Sequence record: PQ351811
DNA from: Shigella phage SSG23
Direction: 5' to 3' (one strand)
Length of the DNA stretch: 64,000 nucleotides
A program made the translations under genes and the position numbers. Positions 51,469 to 58,003 of this stretch are shown piece after piece; positions within the stretch are counted from its first letter, which is position 1; each line of letters starts with the position of its first letter. The notes beneath the pieces are model-generated. The model had not been told where the DNA came from and did no database searches. It saw only the letters and a program-made list of their open reading frames with translations.

Positions 51469-52416
51469 GTGAATATGTTTAAACGCCAAGATTCTTCCAA
51501 ACTGCAAGCTCAACTGGCCGCACTGAAAGGTGGCAACGGTTTCTCTAAAGAAGATCCGAAAGAGTGGAAGATTAAGACTGATGCAGCAGGTAACGGTGAA
51601 GCCCTGATTCGCTTCCTGCCGTCTAAGACAGAAGACGGTCTGCCGATTGTGAAACTGGTAAACCATTCCTTCAAAGTTAATGGAAAATGGTATTGGGAAA
51701 ACTGCTCCAGCACCCACGGTGATTTTGATTCTTGCCCTGTGTGCAAATATATTAACGAAAAAGATTTGTACAATACCGATAAAACCGAATGGCAACTGAT
51801 CAAGCGTAAAGCGTCTTACTACGCAAATATTCTGGTACTGAAAGATCCTCAAGCACCGGAAAACGAAGGCAAGGTATTTAAATTCCGCTTCGGTCAGAAA
51901 ATTTATGATAAGATCGTTGCAATGGTGAACGTGAATACCGATATGGGCGAAGTTCCGGTCGATGTAACTTGTGTGTTCTCCGGTGCTAACTTCCTCCTGA
52001 AAGCTAAGAAGGTTGATAAACACCAGAACTATGATGATTCTCGTTTCATGCAGCAATCACAGCTTCCGAAAATTGAAGACGAAGCATACCAGAAATATCT
52101 GATGGAAAACATGGTTGATCTGGGTGAGATTGTAGCACCTAGCCAGTTTAAACCGTTTGACGAACTGGAAACCAAATTTAAGAAAACTATGGGTGTGTCT
52201 ATGGTAGCGGGTGCTGCGGCTTCCAGTGCTGCGGCGGCGATTAACAGCCAGCTTGATGATTTTGATGCTCAGATGAATGCATTCGATTCTGGTATTACCG
52301 CAGCTAGCACGGCGTCAGATTCTTCCGCTGATGACCTGATGGCATCTCTGGACCTGGGTGGCGGTACTTCCTCCGCTTCTGATCTGGATGACCTGGATTC
52401 TCTGTTAGCGATGTAA
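51469..52416 (+). CDS. 32: single-stranded DNA-binding protein gp32
   Basis: [52 protein letters not shown] match T4 gp32; acidic C-terminal tail. Confidence 0.95.
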
Positions 52417-52427
52417 TGAATTTTTAT

Positions 52428-52453
52428 AGCCTCCCTTCGGGGAGGCTTTTTTA
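52428..52453 (+). terminator. rho-independent terminator after gene 32
   Basis: AGCCTCCC-ttcg-GGGAGGCT followed by TTTTTTATT. Confidence 0.75.
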
Positions 52454-52478
52454 TTACCTAAAAATTTATGAAAAGGTG

Positions 52479-52506
52479 TTGACATGTTGGTGAGGTAATG
52501 TATAAT
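52479..52506 (+). promoter_or_regulatory. sigma70-like early promoter
   Basis: TTGACA, 16 nt, TATAAT; directly after the gene 32 terminator. Confidence 0.55.
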
Positions 52507-52535
52507 GAACTCATCGAAACAATGGAGGATTAACA

Positions 52536-52865
52536 ATGTTTTTGAATGCTACCCTTTCCCAGAAAAGTGATAAAATCGAACTTCTGTATGTCATTGCTGA
52601 TGTGGACGTACAACGAAGAAATATAGATTTAAAAATTCACAAATATTATACTATGAGTGAATATCATGAAATCGAGATCCCACATAGTGTGTATCCTGCA
52701 TTATTGTTAGGAAAAGGAAATCTAAGTGAATATTCTTTGAAAGTCATCAAAGATTCTAAATCAATGCTTGCTCATATGGAAAAAGATTTTCTTGATGAAA
52801 TTTCCGCGCTAGTTATTAAACTGAAAGAAGAAACAGCACCGCTTTTCATGGAACAAAAAGGTTGA
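52536..52865 (+). CDS. hypothetical protein
   Basis: 109-aa ORF downstream of terminator and promoter at 52428-52506. Confidence 0.45.
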   Translation: MFLNATLSQKSDKIELLYVIADVDVQRRNIDLKIHKYYTMSEYHEIEIPHSVYPALLLGKGNLSEYSLKVIKDSKSMLAHMEKDFLDEISALVIKLKEETAPLFMEQKG

Positions 52866-52889
52866 CTCCGAACACAGATGATGTATAAT
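52862..52889 (+). promoter_or_regulatory. sigma70-like early promoter
   Basis: TTGACT (overlaps upstream stop), 16 nt, TATAAT. Confidence 0.55.
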
Positions 52890-52920
52890 ACAAACATCAA
52901 AACAAAGAGAGGATTATATT

Positions 52921-53250
52921 ATGTGGACAGTAGAACAAATCGTAGATGAAACAGTAAGTATTATCGCATGTGGCACTATTGAAGAATGCCTTAAAGCCGC
53001 TAACCGTGAATGTATTATGGTTTATGAAGCCCGTCGCGGTGATGGTACTGTGTTAACCAGCGACTATCGATATGAACCAAAAATGATTACCTTTCGTTTT
53101 TGGGAAAATGGTGTTAATGTTGGGGTATCTCACTTAAAACGTTTTCGTGATTATTCTGACCGTTATTTCATCACACCGGATAATGGTCAAGAATTTAAGA
53201 CAGCAATCACCGAAGAAAATGTAAACGAAAACTTCTTTAAACTGATTTGA
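52921..53250 (+). CDS. hypothetical protein
   Basis: 109-aa ORF downstream of promoter at 52862. Confidence 0.45.
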   Translation: MWTVEQIVDETVSIIACGTIEECLKAANRECIMVYEARRGDGTVLTSDYRYEPKMITFRFWENGVNVGVSHLKRFRDYSDRYFITPDNGQEFKTAITEENVNENFFKLI

Positions 53251-53264
53251 TAGGAGATTATATT

Positions 53265-53834
53265 ATGATTCAATGTGTATTTGCGATTGGTGACACTAAA
53301 ATGTCAGATGAAAATTGGGCGTTTGGTTTTAAAGGTGGCTTACCGTGGGGTCGTCCAATCAAAAAGGATATGGAAAACTTCCAAATGCGCACTATGACGC
53401 GGTTTAGCGATGCTGCGGTAGTAATGGGGCGTAATACCTTTGAAAGTCTTCCTAAAGCTCTTGCAGGACGTCTTAATGTGGTTATTAGCACCGATGCCAG
53501 TAAGCCGACACCAAAAGCTAAAAACGGCGACCAGCCAGATGTGTATACTGGAATTGAATTAAAGGATCTGTTAAAAGCCCTTGAGAAAACGCAAGGTTTG
53601 GTAAGCGTTATCGGTGGACCTTCCCTGATTGAAAAAGCAGTTGAGTTTGCGGACCGTATTGTGTTAACGTATGTTCAACGTTCAGGAATCAACGATCCGT
53701 TTGAATATGATGTTGGTATCTCTAAGGAAATGATTCAGGAATTGTATTTTGACTTTGCAACAAAAGAAGAACATAATTACTTCCTTGATGATTACCTGAT
53801 CAGTGAGCAAATTTTAGAACGTAAGAAGGCGTAA
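53265..53834 (+). CDS. frd: dihydrofolate reductase
   Basis: DHFR motifs (FAIGD, GLPWGRPIKKD, VVMGRNTFESLP, VIGGPSL); position upstream of td as in T4. Confidence 0.8.
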   Translation: MIQCVFAIGDTKMSDENWAFGFKGGLPWGRPIKKDMENFQMRTMTRFSDAAVVMGRNTFESLPKALAGRLNVVISTDASKPTPKAKNGDQPDVYTGIELKDLLKALEKTQGLVSVIGGPSLIEKAVEFADRIVLTYVQRSGINDPFEYDVGISKEMIQELYFDFATKEEHNYFLDDYLISEQILERKKA

Positions 53835-53835
53835 C

Positions 53836-53928
53836 ATGAAAATTCTGACAGATTATGAGTGTAAACATTGCGGTGAATCTTTGATGTTTGCTGGTAGTCG
53901 GTGTTTACATTGTGGGAGGGAACAATAA
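53836..53928 (+). CDS. zinc-ribbon micro-protein
   Basis: 30-aa ORF MKILTDYECKHCGESLMFAGSRCLHCGREQ with two CxxC pairs; tightly packed (TAATG junction). Confidence 0.3.
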   Translation: MKILTDYECKHCGESLMFAGSRCLHCGREQ

Positions 53929-54197
53929 TGAAAATAACCATTATTCAATTATGGTCGGCTACCAGTGAAAACTACGCAGTAGCCGTAGATTATTACGGTT
54001 TACAATATCTCTATGATGAAGCGAGCGCATCATGGCTTCCGGTGCAAGAAAATAGCGATATCTCAAGACCTGCTACTGTATTCGATCCGGGCGTTGTCTT
54101 TATCAATATTGACGAGACAGTAGCAAAACTGCGTAAGAAAGCAATCAATAAGAAAAAGGTGATGTGGGATGAAAGAATATTTGAAACTATTGCGTGA
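53928..54197 (+). CDS. hypothetical protein
   Basis: 89-aa ORF between frd and td. Confidence 0.4.
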   Translation: MKITIIQLWSATSENYAVAVDYYGLQYLYDEASASWLPVQENSDISRPATVFDPGVVFINIDETVAKLRKKAINKKKVMWDERIFETIA

Positions 54198-55401
54198 TGT
54201 TCTTGATAATGGCTGGCCTCGTGAAGACCGAACGGGGGTAGGTACGCTCTCTAAATTCGGCGCAGAGATGCGAATTGACTTAAGCAAGGGTTTCCCCTTA
54301 CTGACAACTAAAAAGATGGCTACAGCCTCTGTAATTGGCGAGTTGCTATGGTTTATGGAAGGGTCGCTGGACCGCCGTCGCTTACAGGAAATTACACGCG
54401 GTAAATTCGATGACGAAGCCTTTGATATTTGGCGCGGTAACTGTCTTGATATGAAAGAAAAGAATCCTTTGCGATTCAACGGCTATAATGTTGGCAATAT
54501 GTATGGTATGGCGTGGCGACGCAAGCCGATTCATCCACACGGTGAAATCAAAATTAAGCGCGTTAAGAGCAAATATACACATACATTTAAGCACCCGTGG
54601 GTAGAAGACTTTACGCCAACCAACGACACAGAAGACCGTTTATGTGCTATCTGGCGTGGTATGCGTTATGAAGAGTTTGATTCTGAATATAATCAATTCT
54701 TAGTAGCAGACCACTGGAAGACTCAATCCAATTTTGTTAATGATGCATACTGCTTGTGGGGATTCCAGGAATGGGTAGATGATGGTTATTTCGGTTATCT
54801 GCTTGATAGTGATTATCTGGGTGGGGATATGTTCGCACCGGATACCACAATCTTTGTTAATATGGACGTAGACACATCAAGCCCTAAAGACGATGAAGAA
54901 TATATCTATCGCCCGAAGATTTGGGAAGACCAGTTACAAAACGTGATTGAACAAATTAAAAATAATCCAACGGATCGCCGGATCATTATTGACTCATGGA
55001 ACGTACAAGGAACACATAATGCTGTATTAGGTGTATGTCATCCTTTCGTGCAATTCTACGTCAATGAAGGTAAACTGTCCTGTATGTGGTTTCAGCGAAG
55101 CGTAGACAGCTTTTTGGGCTTGCCCTTTAACGTCGCCAGCTATGCGCTGTTAACTCACATCATAGCGAAAATGTGCGACCTTGAGGTTGGCGAACTGATT
55201 TTCTCCGGCGGAGATACTCACATTTACAAAAACCACTTTGACCAAGTTATGGAGCAATTAAACCGTGTTCCGTTTGATAAACCAACAATTGAGTTGCCGG
55301 AATTTAAATCTTTAGATGAGGTATTGACAAAAACTCCGAAAGACTTTAAAATTCACAACTATCAAAGCCACCCGGCAATCACCGCTCAAATGGCAGTATA
55401 A
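54169..55401 (+). CDS. td: thymidylate synthase with a large internal insertion
   Basis: ThyA motifs (DRTGVGT, GELLWF, DSWNV, GVCHPFVQFYV, FQRSVDSFLGLPFNVASYALL, GGDTHIY); 410 aa versus about 264-286 for E. coli and T4. Confidence 0.85.
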   Translation: MKEYLKLLRDVLDNGWPREDRTGVGTLSKFGAEMRIDLSKGFPLLTTKKMATASVIGELLWFMEGSLDRRRLQEITRGKFDDEAFDIWRGNCLDMKEKNPLRFNGYNVGNMYGMAWRRKPIHPHGEIKIKRVKSKYTHTFKHPWVEDFTPTNDTEDRLCAIWRGMRYEEFDSEYNQFLVADHWKTQSNFVNDAYCLWGFQEWVDDGYFGYLLDSDYLGGDMFAPDTTIFVNMDVDTSSPKDDEEYIYRPKIWEDQLQNVIEQIKNNPTDRRIIIDSWNVQGTHNAVLGVCHPFVQFYVNEGKLSCMWFQRSVDSFLGLPFNVASYALLTHIIAKMCDLEVGELIFSGGDTHIYKNHFDQVMEQLNRVPFDKPTIELPEFKSLDEVLTKTPKDFKIHNYQSHPAITAQMAV

Positions 55402-55407
55402 ACAAAT

Positions 55408-55425
55408 GCGGGGAGAAATCCCCGC
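55408..55425 (+). other. GAAA-tetraloop stem-loop after td
   Basis: GCGGGGA-GAAA-TCCCCGC; same hairpin as in the promoter spacers at 3304 and 58010, here without a -35 element. Confidence 0.5.
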
Positions 55426-55437
55426 AAGGAGTATCAA

Positions 55438-55740
55438 ATGAAAATATGCCGCGTTGTAAACAAGTACAATAGCGATTTTGATGTTAATATTCAGCGTGGT
55501 ACTATGTGGGGAAATCCATACACCGCCAAAGAATACGGACGAGAGAAAGCTATTGCATTATACAAAGAGTGGTTGTATAATAAGATTCGAAATGGTGAGA
55601 TAACACGAGCGCATTTAGAAGTATTAAGACATATGCGCTTAGGTTGTACTTGCTACCCTAAGAAATGCCACGGTGAAGTATTGGCGGATCTCGTTAATAG
55701 AGTTTTCGGCGATACTCCAGAAAATACGCTTGATATATGA
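55438..55740 (+). CDS. DUF4326-like protein
   Basis: WGNPY and LGCTCYPKKCHGEVL resemble the DUF4326 signature; family assignment is from memory. Confidence 0.4.
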   Translation: MKICRVVNKYNSDFDVNIQRGTMWGNPYTAKEYGREKAIALYKEWLYNKIRNGEITRAHLEVLRHMRLGCTCYPKKCHGEVLADLVNRVFGDTPENTLDI

Positions 55741-55751
55741 AGTGAGGTAAT

Positions 55752-57995
55752 ATGATTAAAAATGTTGTTAAGTCTTCCGGTCTGACTGTTCCGTTTGAAA
55801 AAGAAAAAGTAATGAAAATTCTGGAAGCGGCAGCCGAAGGTCATAACGTTGATCCATATGAATTGTTTGATATGGTTGAACCGCTTCTGACAGAAGGTAT
55901 GTCTACCAACGATATCCAGAAAGTATTGATTAAGGTCGCCGCAGATAACATTACTGTAGAAACACCTGATTATCAATATGTAGCAAGTAACCTTGCAATG
56001 TTCGCGCTTCGTAAATCAGTATATGGTCAATTCCAACCGATTGATTTTTACAGCCATATTGAGCGTAATATTGCAACCGGAAAATATGATCGCGAAATTC
56101 TGCAAAAGTATTCCCGTGAAGAAGTGGAATATCTGGAGAAATTCATCGATCATAAACTTGATTTTAAAATGACCTATGCTGGTGCGATGCAGTTAAAAGA
56201 GAAATATCTTGTTCAGGATCGCAGCACTAAGAAAATCATTGAAACACCGCAATTTGCGTATATGCTGATCGGTATGTGCTTACATCAAGAAGAGACAGAA
56301 AATCGACTTGAACATGTGATTGATTTTTATAATGCTGTTGCGAATAAGCAAATTTCTCTGCCTACTCCGATTATGGCGGGTGTGCGTACCCCGACACGAC
56401 AATTTAGTTCGTGTGTGGTGATTGAAAGTGATGACTCATTGCAGGGCATCAATGAAACAGCAAATGCAATCATCAAGTATATTAGTAAGCGTGCTGGTAT
56501 CGGCATCAATGCTGGTATGATTCGCGCGGAAGGATCTAAGATCGGGCATGGTGAAGTTCGTCATACTGGCGTTATCCCGTTCTGGAAACATTTTCAGACT
56601 GCCGTTAAGTCATGTTCACAAGGCGGTATTCGTGGCGGGGCAGCGACTCTCTATTACCCAATGTGGCATTTAGAGTTTGAAAGTCTTATTGTGTTGAAGA
56701 ACAACAAAGGGGTAGAAGATAACCGCATCCGTCATCTTGATTACGGCGTACAGATTAATAACCTGATGGTAGAGCGATTCCTTAAACGCGATTACATTAC
56801 TCTGTTTAGTCCAGATGTTGCGGGTGGCTTGTTGTGGGATCTGTACTTCCGAGATGAGGAAGGATTCCGCCAGCTTTACGAAAAACTGGAAAAAGATCCG
56901 AGTGTGCGTAAAACTCGTGTTAAAGCCGAAGACCTGTTTTTAGCGGTGGCAATTGAACGTTTTAACACTGGTCGAATCTATCCAGCGTTCACAGACAACA
57001 TGAACAATCACGGGGCGTTTATTCGTAATGTAGCACCGATTAAACAATCTAACCTGTGTTGTGAAATTGCTCTGCCGACAAAACCGATGGGTCGTGATGA
57101 TTCAGAGATCAGCCTATGCACTTTGGCAGCATATGTTTTAGGTAATTTCGATATCGAAAACATGGAAGAAGTAGAACGCATTGCTATGGTTATGGTGCGT
57201 GCGCTTGACAACTTGTTAGATTATCAGGATTATCCTGTAAAACAAGCACTGACAGCCAAAAAACGTCGCTCTCTGGGTGTTGGCGTGACTAACTTTGCAT
57301 CATATCTGGCGGATAATTTCTTCACATATGAAGACGCTAACGAGTTTACGCATAAAACGTTTGAACGCTTGCAATATGCTCTGATTAAGGCTAGTGTGCA
57401 ACTGGCTAAAGAGAAGGGTGCTTGCGAACTGATGCACGAAACACGTTATGGTCGCGGTGAACTTCCTATTGACTGGTACAAAAAGACAGTAGATGAACTG
57501 GTTGATCCGGTGTATGAGATGGATTGGGAAGAACTGCGCGAAGACCTGAAAAAATATGGCATTCGTAACAGTACGCTTTCGGCGCTGATGCCTTGTGAGT
57601 CGTCTTCTCAGGTGTCTAACAGCACAAACGGTATTGAACCGCCTCGCGGGATTGTATCGGTTAAAGGATCAAAGGAAGGACAATTTAATCAGGTTATTCC
57701 GAACGTAGAGAATAATGCTGATGTTATTGACCTGCTTTGGACACTGATCAAGAAAGGTAACAAGCCTTATCTGACACTGGCAGCGATCATGCAGAAGTTT
57801 GTAGATCAGGCGATTAGTTCCAATACATCCTACGATCCAAGCACTTATAAGACTGGTAAAGTCGATATTGCTGATGTATTAGATGATATGTTGTTTGCTC
57901 AATATTACGGCCTCAAGACACTGTATTACGCTAACGTGCGTGATGGTGCTGATGGTACGGAAGACGCTAGCGAATGTTCATCTTGCAAACTGTAA
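55752..57995 (+). CDS. nrdA: ribonucleotide reductase large subunit NrdA (class Ia)
   Basis: N-terminal ATP-cone, catalytic NLCCEI and C-terminal CSSCKL tail; 747 aa. Confidence 0.95.
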   Translation: MIKNVVKSSGLTVPFEKEKVMKILEAAAEGHNVDPYELFDMVEPLLTEGMSTNDIQKVLIKVAADNITVETPDYQYVASNLAMFALRKSVYGQFQPIDFYSHIERNIATGKYDREILQKYSREEVEYLEKFIDHKLDFKMTYAGAMQLKEKYLVQDRSTKKIIETPQFAYMLIGMCLHQEETENRLEHVIDFYNAVANKQISLPTPIMAGVRTPTRQFSSCVVIESDDSLQGINETANAIIKYISKRAGIGINAGMIRAEGSKIGHGEVRHTGVIPFWKHFQTAVKSCSQGGIRGGAATLYYPMWHLEFESLIVLKNNKGVEDNRIRHLDYGVQINNLMVERFLKRDYITLFSPDVAGGLLWDLYFRDEEGFRQLYEKLEKDPSVRKTRVKAEDLFLAVAIERFNTGRIYPAFTDNMNNHGAFIRNVAPIKQSNLCCEIALPTKPMGRDDSEISLCTLAAYVLGNFDIENMEEVERIAMVMVRALDNLLDYQDYPVKQALTAKKRRSLGVGVTNFASYLADNFFTYEDANEFTHKTFERLQYALIKASVQLAKEKGACELMHETRYGRGELPIDWYKKTVDELVDPVYEMDWEELREDLKKYGIRNSTLSALMPCESSSQVSNSTNGIEPPRGIVSVKGSKEGQFNQVIPNVENNADVIDLLWTLIKKGNKPYLTLAAIMQKFVDQAISSNTSYDPSTYKTGKVDIADVLDDMLFAQYYGLKTLYYANVRDGADGTEDASECSSCKL

Positions 57996-58003
57996 AATAA
58001 GTG

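What the first reader, a model, noticed from the sequence alone, without database searches (positions are those of the whole stretch)
54520..54927. Thymidylate synthase with a roughly 125-aa insertion in the small domain, and no intron
The td ORF keeps all ThyA catalytic motifs, including the dUMP-specifying Asn (LGLPFNVASY), but is 410 aa. The extra sequence lies between the MYGMAWR and DQLQNVIEQIKNNPTDRRIII motifs (residues about 118-253), the known variable loop, and does not look like an intein (no Cys/Ser at the N-junction, no His-Asn at the C-junction). The ORF is uninterrupted at the DNA level, unlike T4 td with its group I intron. The insert may be an acquired protein-interaction or regulatory domain.
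Basis: seen in the sequence. Interest (0 to 1): 0.6.

Follow-up and report, generated by a model that had tools for sequence, protein, structure and literature searches.

The report
Endonuclease-like relic inside phage thymidylate synthase
The extra 136 residues in this RB49-like phage's thymidylate synthase are real and fold as their own domain, and they are the shrunken remnant of a homing-endonuclease-like phage protein that sits, unspliced, in the same surface hairpin of this enzyme in many other phages.

Summary
It carries 136 extra residues (118-253; 54520-54927) and has no intron or intein signature. The window is a Krischvirus (RB49-like), and all 58 related genomes keep the insert.

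The insert is not a grown loop. It aligns with larger inserts (about 195-285 aa) at the same site in thymidylate synthases of jumbo and other phages. A profile built only from free-standing phage proteins also detects it (E=4.7e-10). PHROGs calls that family "HNH endonuclease"; Pfam has no model for it.

The window copy is a stripped-down version:
- It lacks the N-terminal beta subdomain, the helix that follows the beta-hairpin, and the C-terminal helix-turn-helix.
- It keeps all 10 structural invariants of the family but at most 1 of 6 polar ones.
- Its net charge is -11, against +4 to +18 for full modules.

It is predicted to fold well (pLDDT about 90+) on a two-stranded stalk. dN/dS is about 0.2, against 0.01-0.06 for the enzyme's N-terminal core.

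Best reading: a fossil of an in-frame, non-splicing endonuclease-like invasion, now a tolerated or co-opted surface domain. Its present function is untested. I found no published description.

The parts
54169..55401 (+). td gene: ThyA-type thymidylate synthase, 410 aa plus stop, one uninterrupted ORF
54169..54519 (+). N-terminal part of the enzyme core (residues 1-117), ending in MYGMAWR
   Evidence: Aligns to E. coli ThyA 1-75 and to insert-less synthases up to the WR motif. dN/dS 0.01-0.06 among Krischvirus genomes.
54520..54927 (+). The insert (residues 118-253), replacing the short hairpin that is 5-34 residues long in insert-less enzymes
   Evidence: Alignments A2/A4 and the junction table. 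Conserved in 58 Krischvirus records. Net charge -11. dN/dS about 0.2-0.3.
54520..54558 (+). Outgoing stalk strand (residues 118-130; basic, RKPIHPHGEIKIK)
   Evidence: AlphaFold2 strand E118-130; block pLDDT 87-94 over residues 111-140. The P-x-P-H-G ... K/R-R motif is shared by enzyme-embedded modules but not by free-standing relatives.
54619..54873 (+). Globular core of the insert (residues 151-235): three to four helices plus a beta-hairpin, homologous to the central part of the endonuclease-like module
   Evidence: Helices 153-171, 181-193 and 199-204; strands 210-213 and 228-231. A profile of 79 non-synthase proteins hits residues about 151-250 with E=4.7e-10. Structural invariants W162, M165, Y174, V179, W183, F189, D192, D213, D215 and T226 are kept. 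Polar invariants R, C, K, S, C are replaced by E168, E169, S214, A223, T227. Net charge -14.
54901..54927 (+). Returning stalk strand (residues 245-253; EYIYRPKIWE)
   Evidence: AlphaFold2 strand E245-254. The (Y/V)-x-R-P-x-I-x-x-DQL motif is conserved in all enzyme-embedded modules.
54928..55398 (+). C-terminal part of the enzyme core (residues 254-410), with catalytic Cys290 (55036-55038) and the dUMP-specifying Asn321 (55129-55131)
   Evidence: Aligns to E. coli ThyA 110-264. Invariant columns listed.

Best explanation
The insert is the decayed remnant of a homing-endonuclease-like phage protein module that was inserted in frame into td.

The site is the tip of a solvent-exposed beta-hairpin, directly after the YGxxWR motif (E. 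coli ThyA residues 100-109). The module is not removed by RNA or protein splicing, so it is made as part of the enzyme.

In the lineage leading to Krischvirus the module lost several parts:
- its N-terminal beta subdomain;
- the loop after the R-C-Y motif;
- the helix that follows its beta-hairpin;
- its C-terminal helix-turn-helix;
- nearly all conserved polar residues.

It also turned strongly acidic. What remains is a compact, well-folded helical/beta globule on a two-stranded stalk.

The thymidylate synthase core keeps every catalytic residue and should work as a normal dUMP methylase.

Shown:
- the existence of the insert and its conservation;
- its homology to the free-standing family and to larger inserts at the same site;
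- the pattern of losses;
- the selection regime.

Predicted:
- the fold and the stalk geometry.

Inferred:
- the ancestral module bound or cut DNA;
- the window copy can no longer do so;
- it persists because it is harmless where it sits, and either must stay folded or has been co-opted.
For: 1. Same-site homologues. Thymidylate synthases of Asteriusvirus UE-S1 and Alcyoneusvirus phiKp_21 (517 aa each) and Vibrio phage D69 (477 aa) carry larger inserts between the same WR and DQL motifs, and these align with the window insert. Twenty-five database proteins of 401-613 aa form a graded size series at this site.

2. Family link. The larger inserts match PHROG families annotated as HNH endonuclease: phrog_2081 E=4e-32, phrog_953 E=7e-25, phrog_374 E=9e-21. 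A profile of the inserts finds 15,697 proteins at E<=1e-3 among 1.84 billion representatives. Of the top 147, 68 are thymidylate synthases and 79 are not; most of the 79 are 175-300-aa free-standing proteins made of the module alone.

3. Independent test. A profile built only from those 79 non-synthase proteins hits the window Td at residues about 151-250 with E=4.7e-10 among 860 six-frame ORFs: all those of the window plus those of two fetched loci. It hits nothing else in the window.

4. Decay signature. The window keeps 10 of 10 structural invariants of the family but at most 1 of 6 polar invariants (R, C, K, S, C, N). Nearly all embedded modules of 194 aa or more keep 5-6 of 6. The N-terminal subdomain and C-terminal helix-turn-helix are absent. 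Net charge is -11, against +4 to +18 for full modules.

5. Direction of change. In a neighbour-joining tree of 163 enzyme cores, the short-insert clade (window, P0001-P0006) is nested among long-insert enzymes.

6. Folded, not junk. AlphaFold2 gives mean pLDDT 93.8 for the whole protein. Ten-residue blocks across the insert score 87-98, except one at 76.

7. Selection. dN/dS of the insert is about 0.2-0.3, against 0.01-0.06 for the N-terminal core, in seven Krischvirus genes.

8. No splicing signals. There is no Hint domain, no junction residues typical of inteins and no Rfam intron.
Against: - No conserved histidine exists in the family, so canonical HNH chemistry is not supported.
- dN/dS well below 1 and strict retention in all 58 genomes could equally mean the domain now has a function of its own.
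- The tree is a crude neighbour-joining tree on a biased sample.
- The structure is a prediction. I could not inspect the coordinates to see how the domain sits relative to the active site or the dimer interface.
Confidence: 0.72

Rival explanations
1. Co-opted functional domain. Whatever its origin, the insert now does a job for the phage. It might be an acidic docking surface that ties Td to partners in the nucleotide-synthesis or replication machinery, or a regulator of Td.
For: The insert is retained in all 58 Krischvirus records and in about 60%-identical metagenomic relatives from T4-like contigs. dN/dS is about 0.2, well below neutrality. It is confidently folded. The motif DAYCLWGFQEWVD is strongly conserved within the clade. 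The shift to net charge -11 is marked.
Against: No partner, motif or context points to a specific function. Purifying selection is also expected for a passenger domain that must stay folded so as not to wreck an essential enzyme. Constraint on the insert is roughly 4-30 times weaker than on the N-terminal core. Insert length varies within the genus, giving proteins of 406-410 aa.
Confidence: 0.25
2. Still-active mobile element. The window insert encodes a working site-specific nuclease or DNA-binding domain that drives its own spread into insert-less td alleles.
For: Presence/absence of the full module is patchy across enzyme lineages: 5 changes on the tree, and P0024 with the insert is 92% identical in its core to P0046 without it.
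Against: The window copy has lost two of the module's subdomains and nearly all polar invariants, and it is highly acidic. The insert is fixed in the genus, so no empty target sites are seen. No alternative-frame ORF is hidden inside it.
Confidence: 0.03
3. Intein or mini-intein that is spliced out after translation.
For: It is an in-frame insertion in a nucleotide-metabolism enzyme of a phage, which is a typical intein habitat.
Against: There is no Cys/Ser/Ala at the first insert residue and no His-Asn followed by Cys/Ser/Thr at the end. There is no Hint-domain match in the window protein or in the larger relatives. The predicted fold is a stalk plus a helical globule, not the beta-rich Hint horseshoe.
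Confidence: 0.01
4. Home-grown expansion of the enzyme's own variable small-domain loop, comparable to the L. casei 50-residue insert, with no foreign origin.
For: The hairpin at this site varies from 5 to 34 residues among insert-less enzymes, so it tolerates length change.
Against: There is significant similarity to free-standing non-synthase proteins (E=4.7e-10) and to larger modules matching PHROG endonuclease families. The L. casei insert is at a different site.
Confidence: 0.03

Closest known systems
ThyA-type thymidylate synthases, including phage T4 Td (PDB 1TIS) and E. coli ThyA
   Different: It carries 136 residues where E. coli has 10 and the T4-like enzymes sampled have 5-11. It has no group I intron, unlike T4 td.
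The 50-residue small-domain insert of Lactobacillus casei thymidylate synthase
   Same: A lineage-specific addition to the small domain that leaves catalysis intact.
   Different: A different site. The L. casei extra residues (about 87-138) precede GDLGLVYGSQWR, while the Krischvirus insert follows the WR. The L. casei segment shows no relation to the endonuclease-like module.
Free-standing phage proteins of PHROG families 2081, 953 and 374 ('HNH endonuclease'), some with I-HmuI NUMOD-like tails
   Same: Homologous central region: helices carrying W-x2-M, W-x5-F-x2-D and a hairpin carrying L-D-x-D ... T-x-F.
   Different: The window copy lacks the N-terminal beta subdomain, the R-C-Y and K/S/C/N invariants, the helix after the hairpin and any DNA-binding tail. 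It is acidic and embedded in an enzyme. The family itself has no tested activity and no conserved His.
Inteins and mini-inteins in phage replication and nucleotide-metabolism proteins
   Same: An in-frame insertion of a selfish-element-like module into a conserved enzyme, followed by decay of the endonuclease part (the homing cycle).
   Different: There is no Hint splicing domain and no junction residues, so the insert must stay in the mature protein.
The ShiLan insertion element in a mycobacteriophage DNA methylase (PMC11855218)
   Same: A non-splicing insertion that reads through in frame with its host gene and is predicted to loop out of the host protein. It shows a patchy, homing-like distribution.
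   Different: In ShiLan the endonuclease is encoded in another reading frame. Here the in-frame translation is itself the homologue of the free-standing proteins, and no alternative-frame ORF exists.
In-frame fusions of LAGLIDADG endonuclease genes with mitochondrial rps3 in Ophiostoma
   Same: A homing-endonuclease coding sequence fused in frame to a host gene without an intron or intein of its own (PMC7902536, citing Gibb and Hausner 2005).
   Different: A different endonuclease family, host gene and domain of life. It is reported as a fusion, not an insertion at a hairpin tip, and no stripped-down domesticated remnant is described in the passage read.

Membership tests
ThyA-type thymidylate synthase (Pfam PF00303) | Significant match to the family profile over the whole catalytic core | tested here: met
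   PF00303 E=2.1e-84, 283 bits against a cut-off of 24.3, in two stretches flanking the insert.
ThyA-type thymidylate synthase (Pfam PF00303) | Catalytic Cys, phosphate-binding arginines, and Asn (not Asp) at the base-specifying position | tested here: met
   C290-H291, R21, R270/R271, R310, S311, D313, N321, H351 and Y353 are invariant or nearly invariant in alignments A2 and A4. They align to E. coli C146, R166, N177 and the others.
ThyA-type thymidylate synthase (Pfam PF00303) | Thymidylate synthase fold | tested here: met
ThyA-type thymidylate synthase (Pfam PF00303) | Methylation of dUMP to dTMP | not testable with these tools
   Needs an enzyme assay or thyA complementation.
Intein | Cys/Ser/Ala as the first residue, and His-Asn at the end followed by Cys/Ser/Thr | tested here: not met
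   The insert starts with R118-K119 and ends ...K-I-W-E253, followed by D254.
Intein | Hint (splicing) domain | tested here: not met
   No Pfam intein or Hint match in the window protein, its insert, or the larger relatives, even at E<=1. The predicted fold is a stalk plus a helical globule.
Group I intron in td (as in phage T4) | Interruption of the reading frame by a structured intron RNA | tested here: not met
   One continuous ORF. No Rfam match in 52000-58000 apart from four chance-level hits elsewhere.
HNH (beta-beta-alpha-metal) endonuclease | His general base at the end of the first strand, plus Asn and His/Asn metal ligands | tested here: not met
   The window has S214 where the parent family has an invariant Lys, and neither has His. 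The following helix with its invariant Asn is deleted in the window.
HNH (beta-beta-alpha-metal) endonuclease | Match to HNH sequence profiles or solved HNH folds | tested here: inconclusive
Uncharacterised endonuclease-like phage module (PHROG 2081/953/374) | Significant profile match to family members that are not thymidylate synthases | tested here: met
   A profile of 79 non-synthase proteins hits window Td residues about 151-250 with E=4.7e-10.
Uncharacterised endonuclease-like phage module (PHROG 2081/953/374) | Family-invariant polar residues (R-C-Y, D-K-D, Y-S, T-C, N) | tested here: not met
   They are replaced by E168, E169, S214, A223 and T227; the last Asn is ambiguous between alignments. 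Count is 0-1 of 6. I therefore file the insert as a degenerate derivative, not a working member.
Uncharacterised endonuclease-like phage module (PHROG 2081/953/374) | N-terminal beta subdomain (I-x-F-x2-T-G ... K-D ... G-V-G-Y-x-G) and, in some members, a C-terminal NUMOD-like helix-turn-helix | tested here: not met
   Both are absent from the window insert; 0 of 7 N-terminal invariants are kept.
DHHRN (Endo VII-motif) homing endonucleases such as F-CphI | Conserved Asp, His, His, Arg, Asn of the Endo VII catalytic motif | tested here: not met
   No conserved His in the module family or in the window insert. Family definition taken from PMC6083498.

The most novel reading that the evidence does not exclude
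The full-length versions of this module may be a so-far undescribed kind of selfish element. It would be a homing-endonuclease-like gene that lives inside a protein-coding gene in frame and without any splicing. It would be expressed as a domain of the host enzyme and would spread into empty td alleles at the codons of one surface hairpin. The Krischvirus insert would then be the end stage of that element's life cycle, a fossil fixed as a permanent protein domain. This would show a direct route from selfish DNA to new protein architecture in an essential enzyme.
Probability: 0.3. Interest if true: 0.75.

Novelty: new variant of a known kind. Interest (0 to 1): 0.57.

Why it matters
- Origin explained. 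An odd, unexplained feature of a well-known phage enzyme gets a concrete origin.
- A new kind of host-element arrangement. Selfish endonuclease-like genes are known to hide in introns and inteins so as not to break their host gene. Here one appears to have settled in frame in a tolerant surface hairpin of thymidylate synthase, with no splicing at all.
- It is widespread. At least 68 distinct 50%-identity clusters of phage thymidylate synthases carry the module.
- A full decay series is visible. The Krischvirus copy is the smallest stage, where only the fold survives.
- A natural test case. The series shows how mobile-element proteins can become permanent domains of essential enzymes.
- A target for biochemistry. 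It marks a large phage protein family, with no Pfam model and no solved structure, for experimental study.
- Practical points. It identifies a permissive insertion site in thymidylate synthase. It also warns annotators that some of these enzymes are mislabelled 'HNH endonuclease' or 'hypothetical protein'.

Tried and rejected
Searches that found nothing or could not be run:
- The word-indexed protein search found nothing with the window insert alone, and only two fragments with the phiKp_21 insert. The full-length query and the exhaustive profile search were needed.
- Pfam and NCBIfam have no model for the insert or its free-standing relatives.
- A PDB sequence-profile search gave only chance hits.
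- The AlphaFold-database library was not available.

Explanations considered and rejected:
- Intein: no junction residues and no Hint domain.
- Group I intron: the ORF is continuous and Rfam has no match.
- Hidden out-of-frame endonuclease, as in the ShiLan element: no alternative-frame ORF of 40 aa or more lies within the insert; only a 70-aa minus-strand ORF (54382..54594) clips its first 75 nt.
- L. casei-type small-domain insert: different site.
- F-CphI/DHHRN family: no conserved His.
- A second copy or donor of the module elsewhere: none in the window's 64 kb or in the RB49 flank.
- A link to the unexplained cytosine modification of some Krischvirus phages (PMC13390438). I found no support. 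Td keeps the dUMP-specifying Asn, and the modified and unmodified phages of that study are 99.96% identical.
- Recent mobility: not demonstrated. The closest insert-plus and insert-minus pair is 92% identical in protein but only 77-81% in flanking DNA.

Full report
WHAT IS THERE

The window comes from an RB49-like T4-type phage (genus Krischvirus). The td region is 100% identical to Shigella phage SFHK24 and about 95% identical to RB49. The gene order gp32 - small ORFs - frd - td - nrdA matches RB49.

td is one ORF, 54169-55401, 410 aa. The flagged coordinates, 54520-54927, are residues 118-253.

There is no intron: the ORF is continuous and Rfam has no match. There is no intein: the junction residues are wrong and there is no Hint domain. 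All 58 related phage records keep the insert.

WHERE THE INSERT SITS

The insert replaces the short hairpin directly after the YGxxWR motif. That hairpin is 10 residues in E. coli and L. casei, and 5-34 residues in the insert-less enzymes sampled.

The classical variable segment of the small domain is the L. casei 50-residue insert, and it lies upstream of that motif.

AlphaFold2 predicts two long strands (118-130 and 245-254) forming a stalk. The stalk carries a globule of helices 153-171, 181-193 and 199-204 and a hairpin at 210-213 / 228-231. Ten-residue pLDDT blocks across the insert are 87-98, except one at 76.

WHAT THE INSERT IS

A translated search of phage genomes with the insert region found larger inserts at the same site. 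They occur in thymidylate synthases of Asteriusvirus UE-S1 and Alcyoneusvirus phiKp_21 (517 aa) and Vibrio phage D69 (477 aa, annotated 'HNH endonuclease'). Weaker hits were to small free-standing 'HNH endonuclease' genes.

The larger inserts match PHROG families 2081, 953 and 374 with E-values from 4e-32 to 9e-21. The window insert matches the same top two families only at E about 0.1.

The full-length protein search returned 25 insert-bearing enzymes of 401-613 aa. They form a size series at this one site:
- full modules of about 245-285 residues;
- versions lacking the N-terminal beta subdomain;
- versions lacking the C-terminal helix-turn-helix and the loop after R-C-Y;
- the Krischvirus clade, which is the smallest.

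A profile of the inserts, searched exhaustively against 1.84 billion representatives, found 15,697 proteins at E<=1e-3. Of the top 147, 68 are thymidylate synthases and 79 are not. Most of the 79 are 175-300-aa proteins that consist of the module alone.

As an independent test, I built a profile from those 79 non-synthase proteins only. It hits the window Td at residues about 151-250 with E=4.7e-10 and hits nothing else in the window. The insert is therefore foreign, not a grown loop.

WHAT THE PARENT FAMILY IS, AND WHAT IS NOT KNOWN

Pfam recognises only an I-HmuI NUMOD-like DNA-binding tail in 6 of the 79 relatives and an AP2 domain in one. It finds no nuclease domain. NCBIfam and PDB sequence searches find nothing.

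Among predicted viral structures, the best match is another 564-aa thymidylate synthase. The next matches are uncharacterised phage proteins, a few of them named homing endonuclease.

The family has no conserved histidine. Its invariants are W, M, R-C-Y, Y, W, F, D, D-K-D, Y-S, T-C and N. It is therefore neither a canonical HNH enzyme nor a member of the Endo VII-motif family of F-CphI. 'Endonuclease-like' is an annotation-level label, not a tested activity.

DECAY IN THE WINDOW COPY

- Against the free-standing family, the window keeps all 10 structural invariants: W162, M165, Y174, V179, W183, F189, D192, D213, D215, T226.
- It replaces the polar invariants with E168, E169, S214, A223 and T227.
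- It has none of the seven N-terminal invariants.
- Nearly all embedded modules of 194 residues or more keep 5-6 of the 6 polar invariants. All those of 127-145 residues keep 0-2.
- The window insert has net charge -11, and its globule -14. Full modules are +4 to +18 and most free-standing relatives are positive.
- In a neighbour-joining tree of 163 enzyme cores, the short-insert clade is nested among long-insert enzymes.

This is the pattern expected for an endonuclease-type element that has lost its original activity but is kept as a folded body.

SELECTION

Among seven Krischvirus td genes, the insert has dN/dS of about 0.2-0.3. The N-terminal core has 0.01-0.06, and the unrecombined C-terminal core is similarly low. 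The counts are small, about 8-14 changes of each kind. The insert is constrained, but much less than the enzyme. This fits either a passenger that must stay folded or a co-opted domain, and cannot separate the two.

IS THE MODULE MOBILE?

Presence/absence needs at least five changes on the core tree. One insert-bearing enzyme (P0024) is 92% identical in its core to an insert-less one (P0046) from a syntenic phage contig. At the DNA level, homology breaks exactly after the WR codons and resumes at the DQL codons. The flanks are only 77-81% identical, however, so recent homing is not shown.

The insert-bearing genes whose contigs I examined lie in phage-like contexts, next to DHFR.

COMPARISON WITH KNOWN THINGS

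The enzyme is an ordinary ThyA. The insert is unlike the L. casei insert (different site), unlike T4's td intron, and unlike inteins.

The nearest precedents for an endonuclease-related sequence sitting in frame in a host gene without splicing are two:
- the ShiLan element in a mycobacteriophage methylase, where the endonuclease is in another frame;
- in-frame rps3-LAGLIDADG fusions in fungal mitochondria.

I found no paper that mentions the insert in RB49-like Td or in jumbo-phage thymidylate synthases.

VERDICT

The best explanation is a decayed, in-frame, non-splicing remnant of an endonuclease-like phage module, retained as a folded acidic surface domain on an otherwise normal thymidylate synthase (confidence about 0.7). 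Whether it now has a function is open.

I classify it as a new variant of a known kind. Its interest is moderate to fairly high, mainly for what it shows about how selfish-element proteins can become permanent parts of essential enzymes.

Noticed in passing
window 54934-55230 (td residues about 256-354), compared with loci L006 (JSE) and L009 (GEC-3S): In phages JSE and GEC-3S, a patch of about 300 nt in td is only 51-85% identical to the window, while both flanks are 90-100% identical. The patch begins right at the 3' junction of the insert. It looks like a gene-conversion or recombination tract abutting the insert. By my recollection of T4 it also covers the position where T4 td carries its intron.
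   Followed up: partly
window 55438-55740 (+): A 100-aa ORF with a DUF4326 domain (Pfam E=6.5e-23) lies between td and nrdA. RB49 has only a 68-nt gap there, but the more distant T4-like contig L011 has a DUF4326 gene in the same place.
   Followed up: partly
window 52536-52865 (+) versus L001 1247-2704 (RB49): Between gene 32 and frd, RB49 carries a 485-aa 'endonuclease' (CapR homology domain, DUF723, treble-clef zinc finger). The window instead has an unrelated 109-aa ORF with no Pfam match. This is a presence/absence difference of a probable mobile nuclease gene close to td.
   Followed up: partly
L002 2261-3694 (Vibrio phage D69) and L004 2270-3823 (Klebsiella phage phiKp_21): Full-length thymidylate synthases carrying the large module are annotated 'HNH endonuclease' and 'hypothetical protein' in the public records. 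The insert misleads automatic annotation.
   Followed up: yes
protein P0144 (264 aa, from the representative search): This apparently free-standing protein carries the enzyme-type stalk segments at both ends (...KMKPRED... and ...VLYRPIN). It may be a fragment of an insert-bearing thymidylate synthase gene or a split gene.
   Followed up: no
window 53901-54197 (+): A 98-aa ORF with no Pfam match overlaps the td start by 29 nt. RB49 annotates a 270-nt gene (RB49p236) at the same position with the same 29-nt overlap of td.
   Followed up: no
genus level (literature, PMC13390438): A 2026 paper reports that some Krischvirus phages have modified cytosines although the genus lacks any known dCMP hydroxymethylase. 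The pathway is unknown. Td is the only thymidylate-synthase-family enzyme found in this part of the window, but it keeps the dUMP-specifying Asn, so no link is supported.
   Followed up: partly
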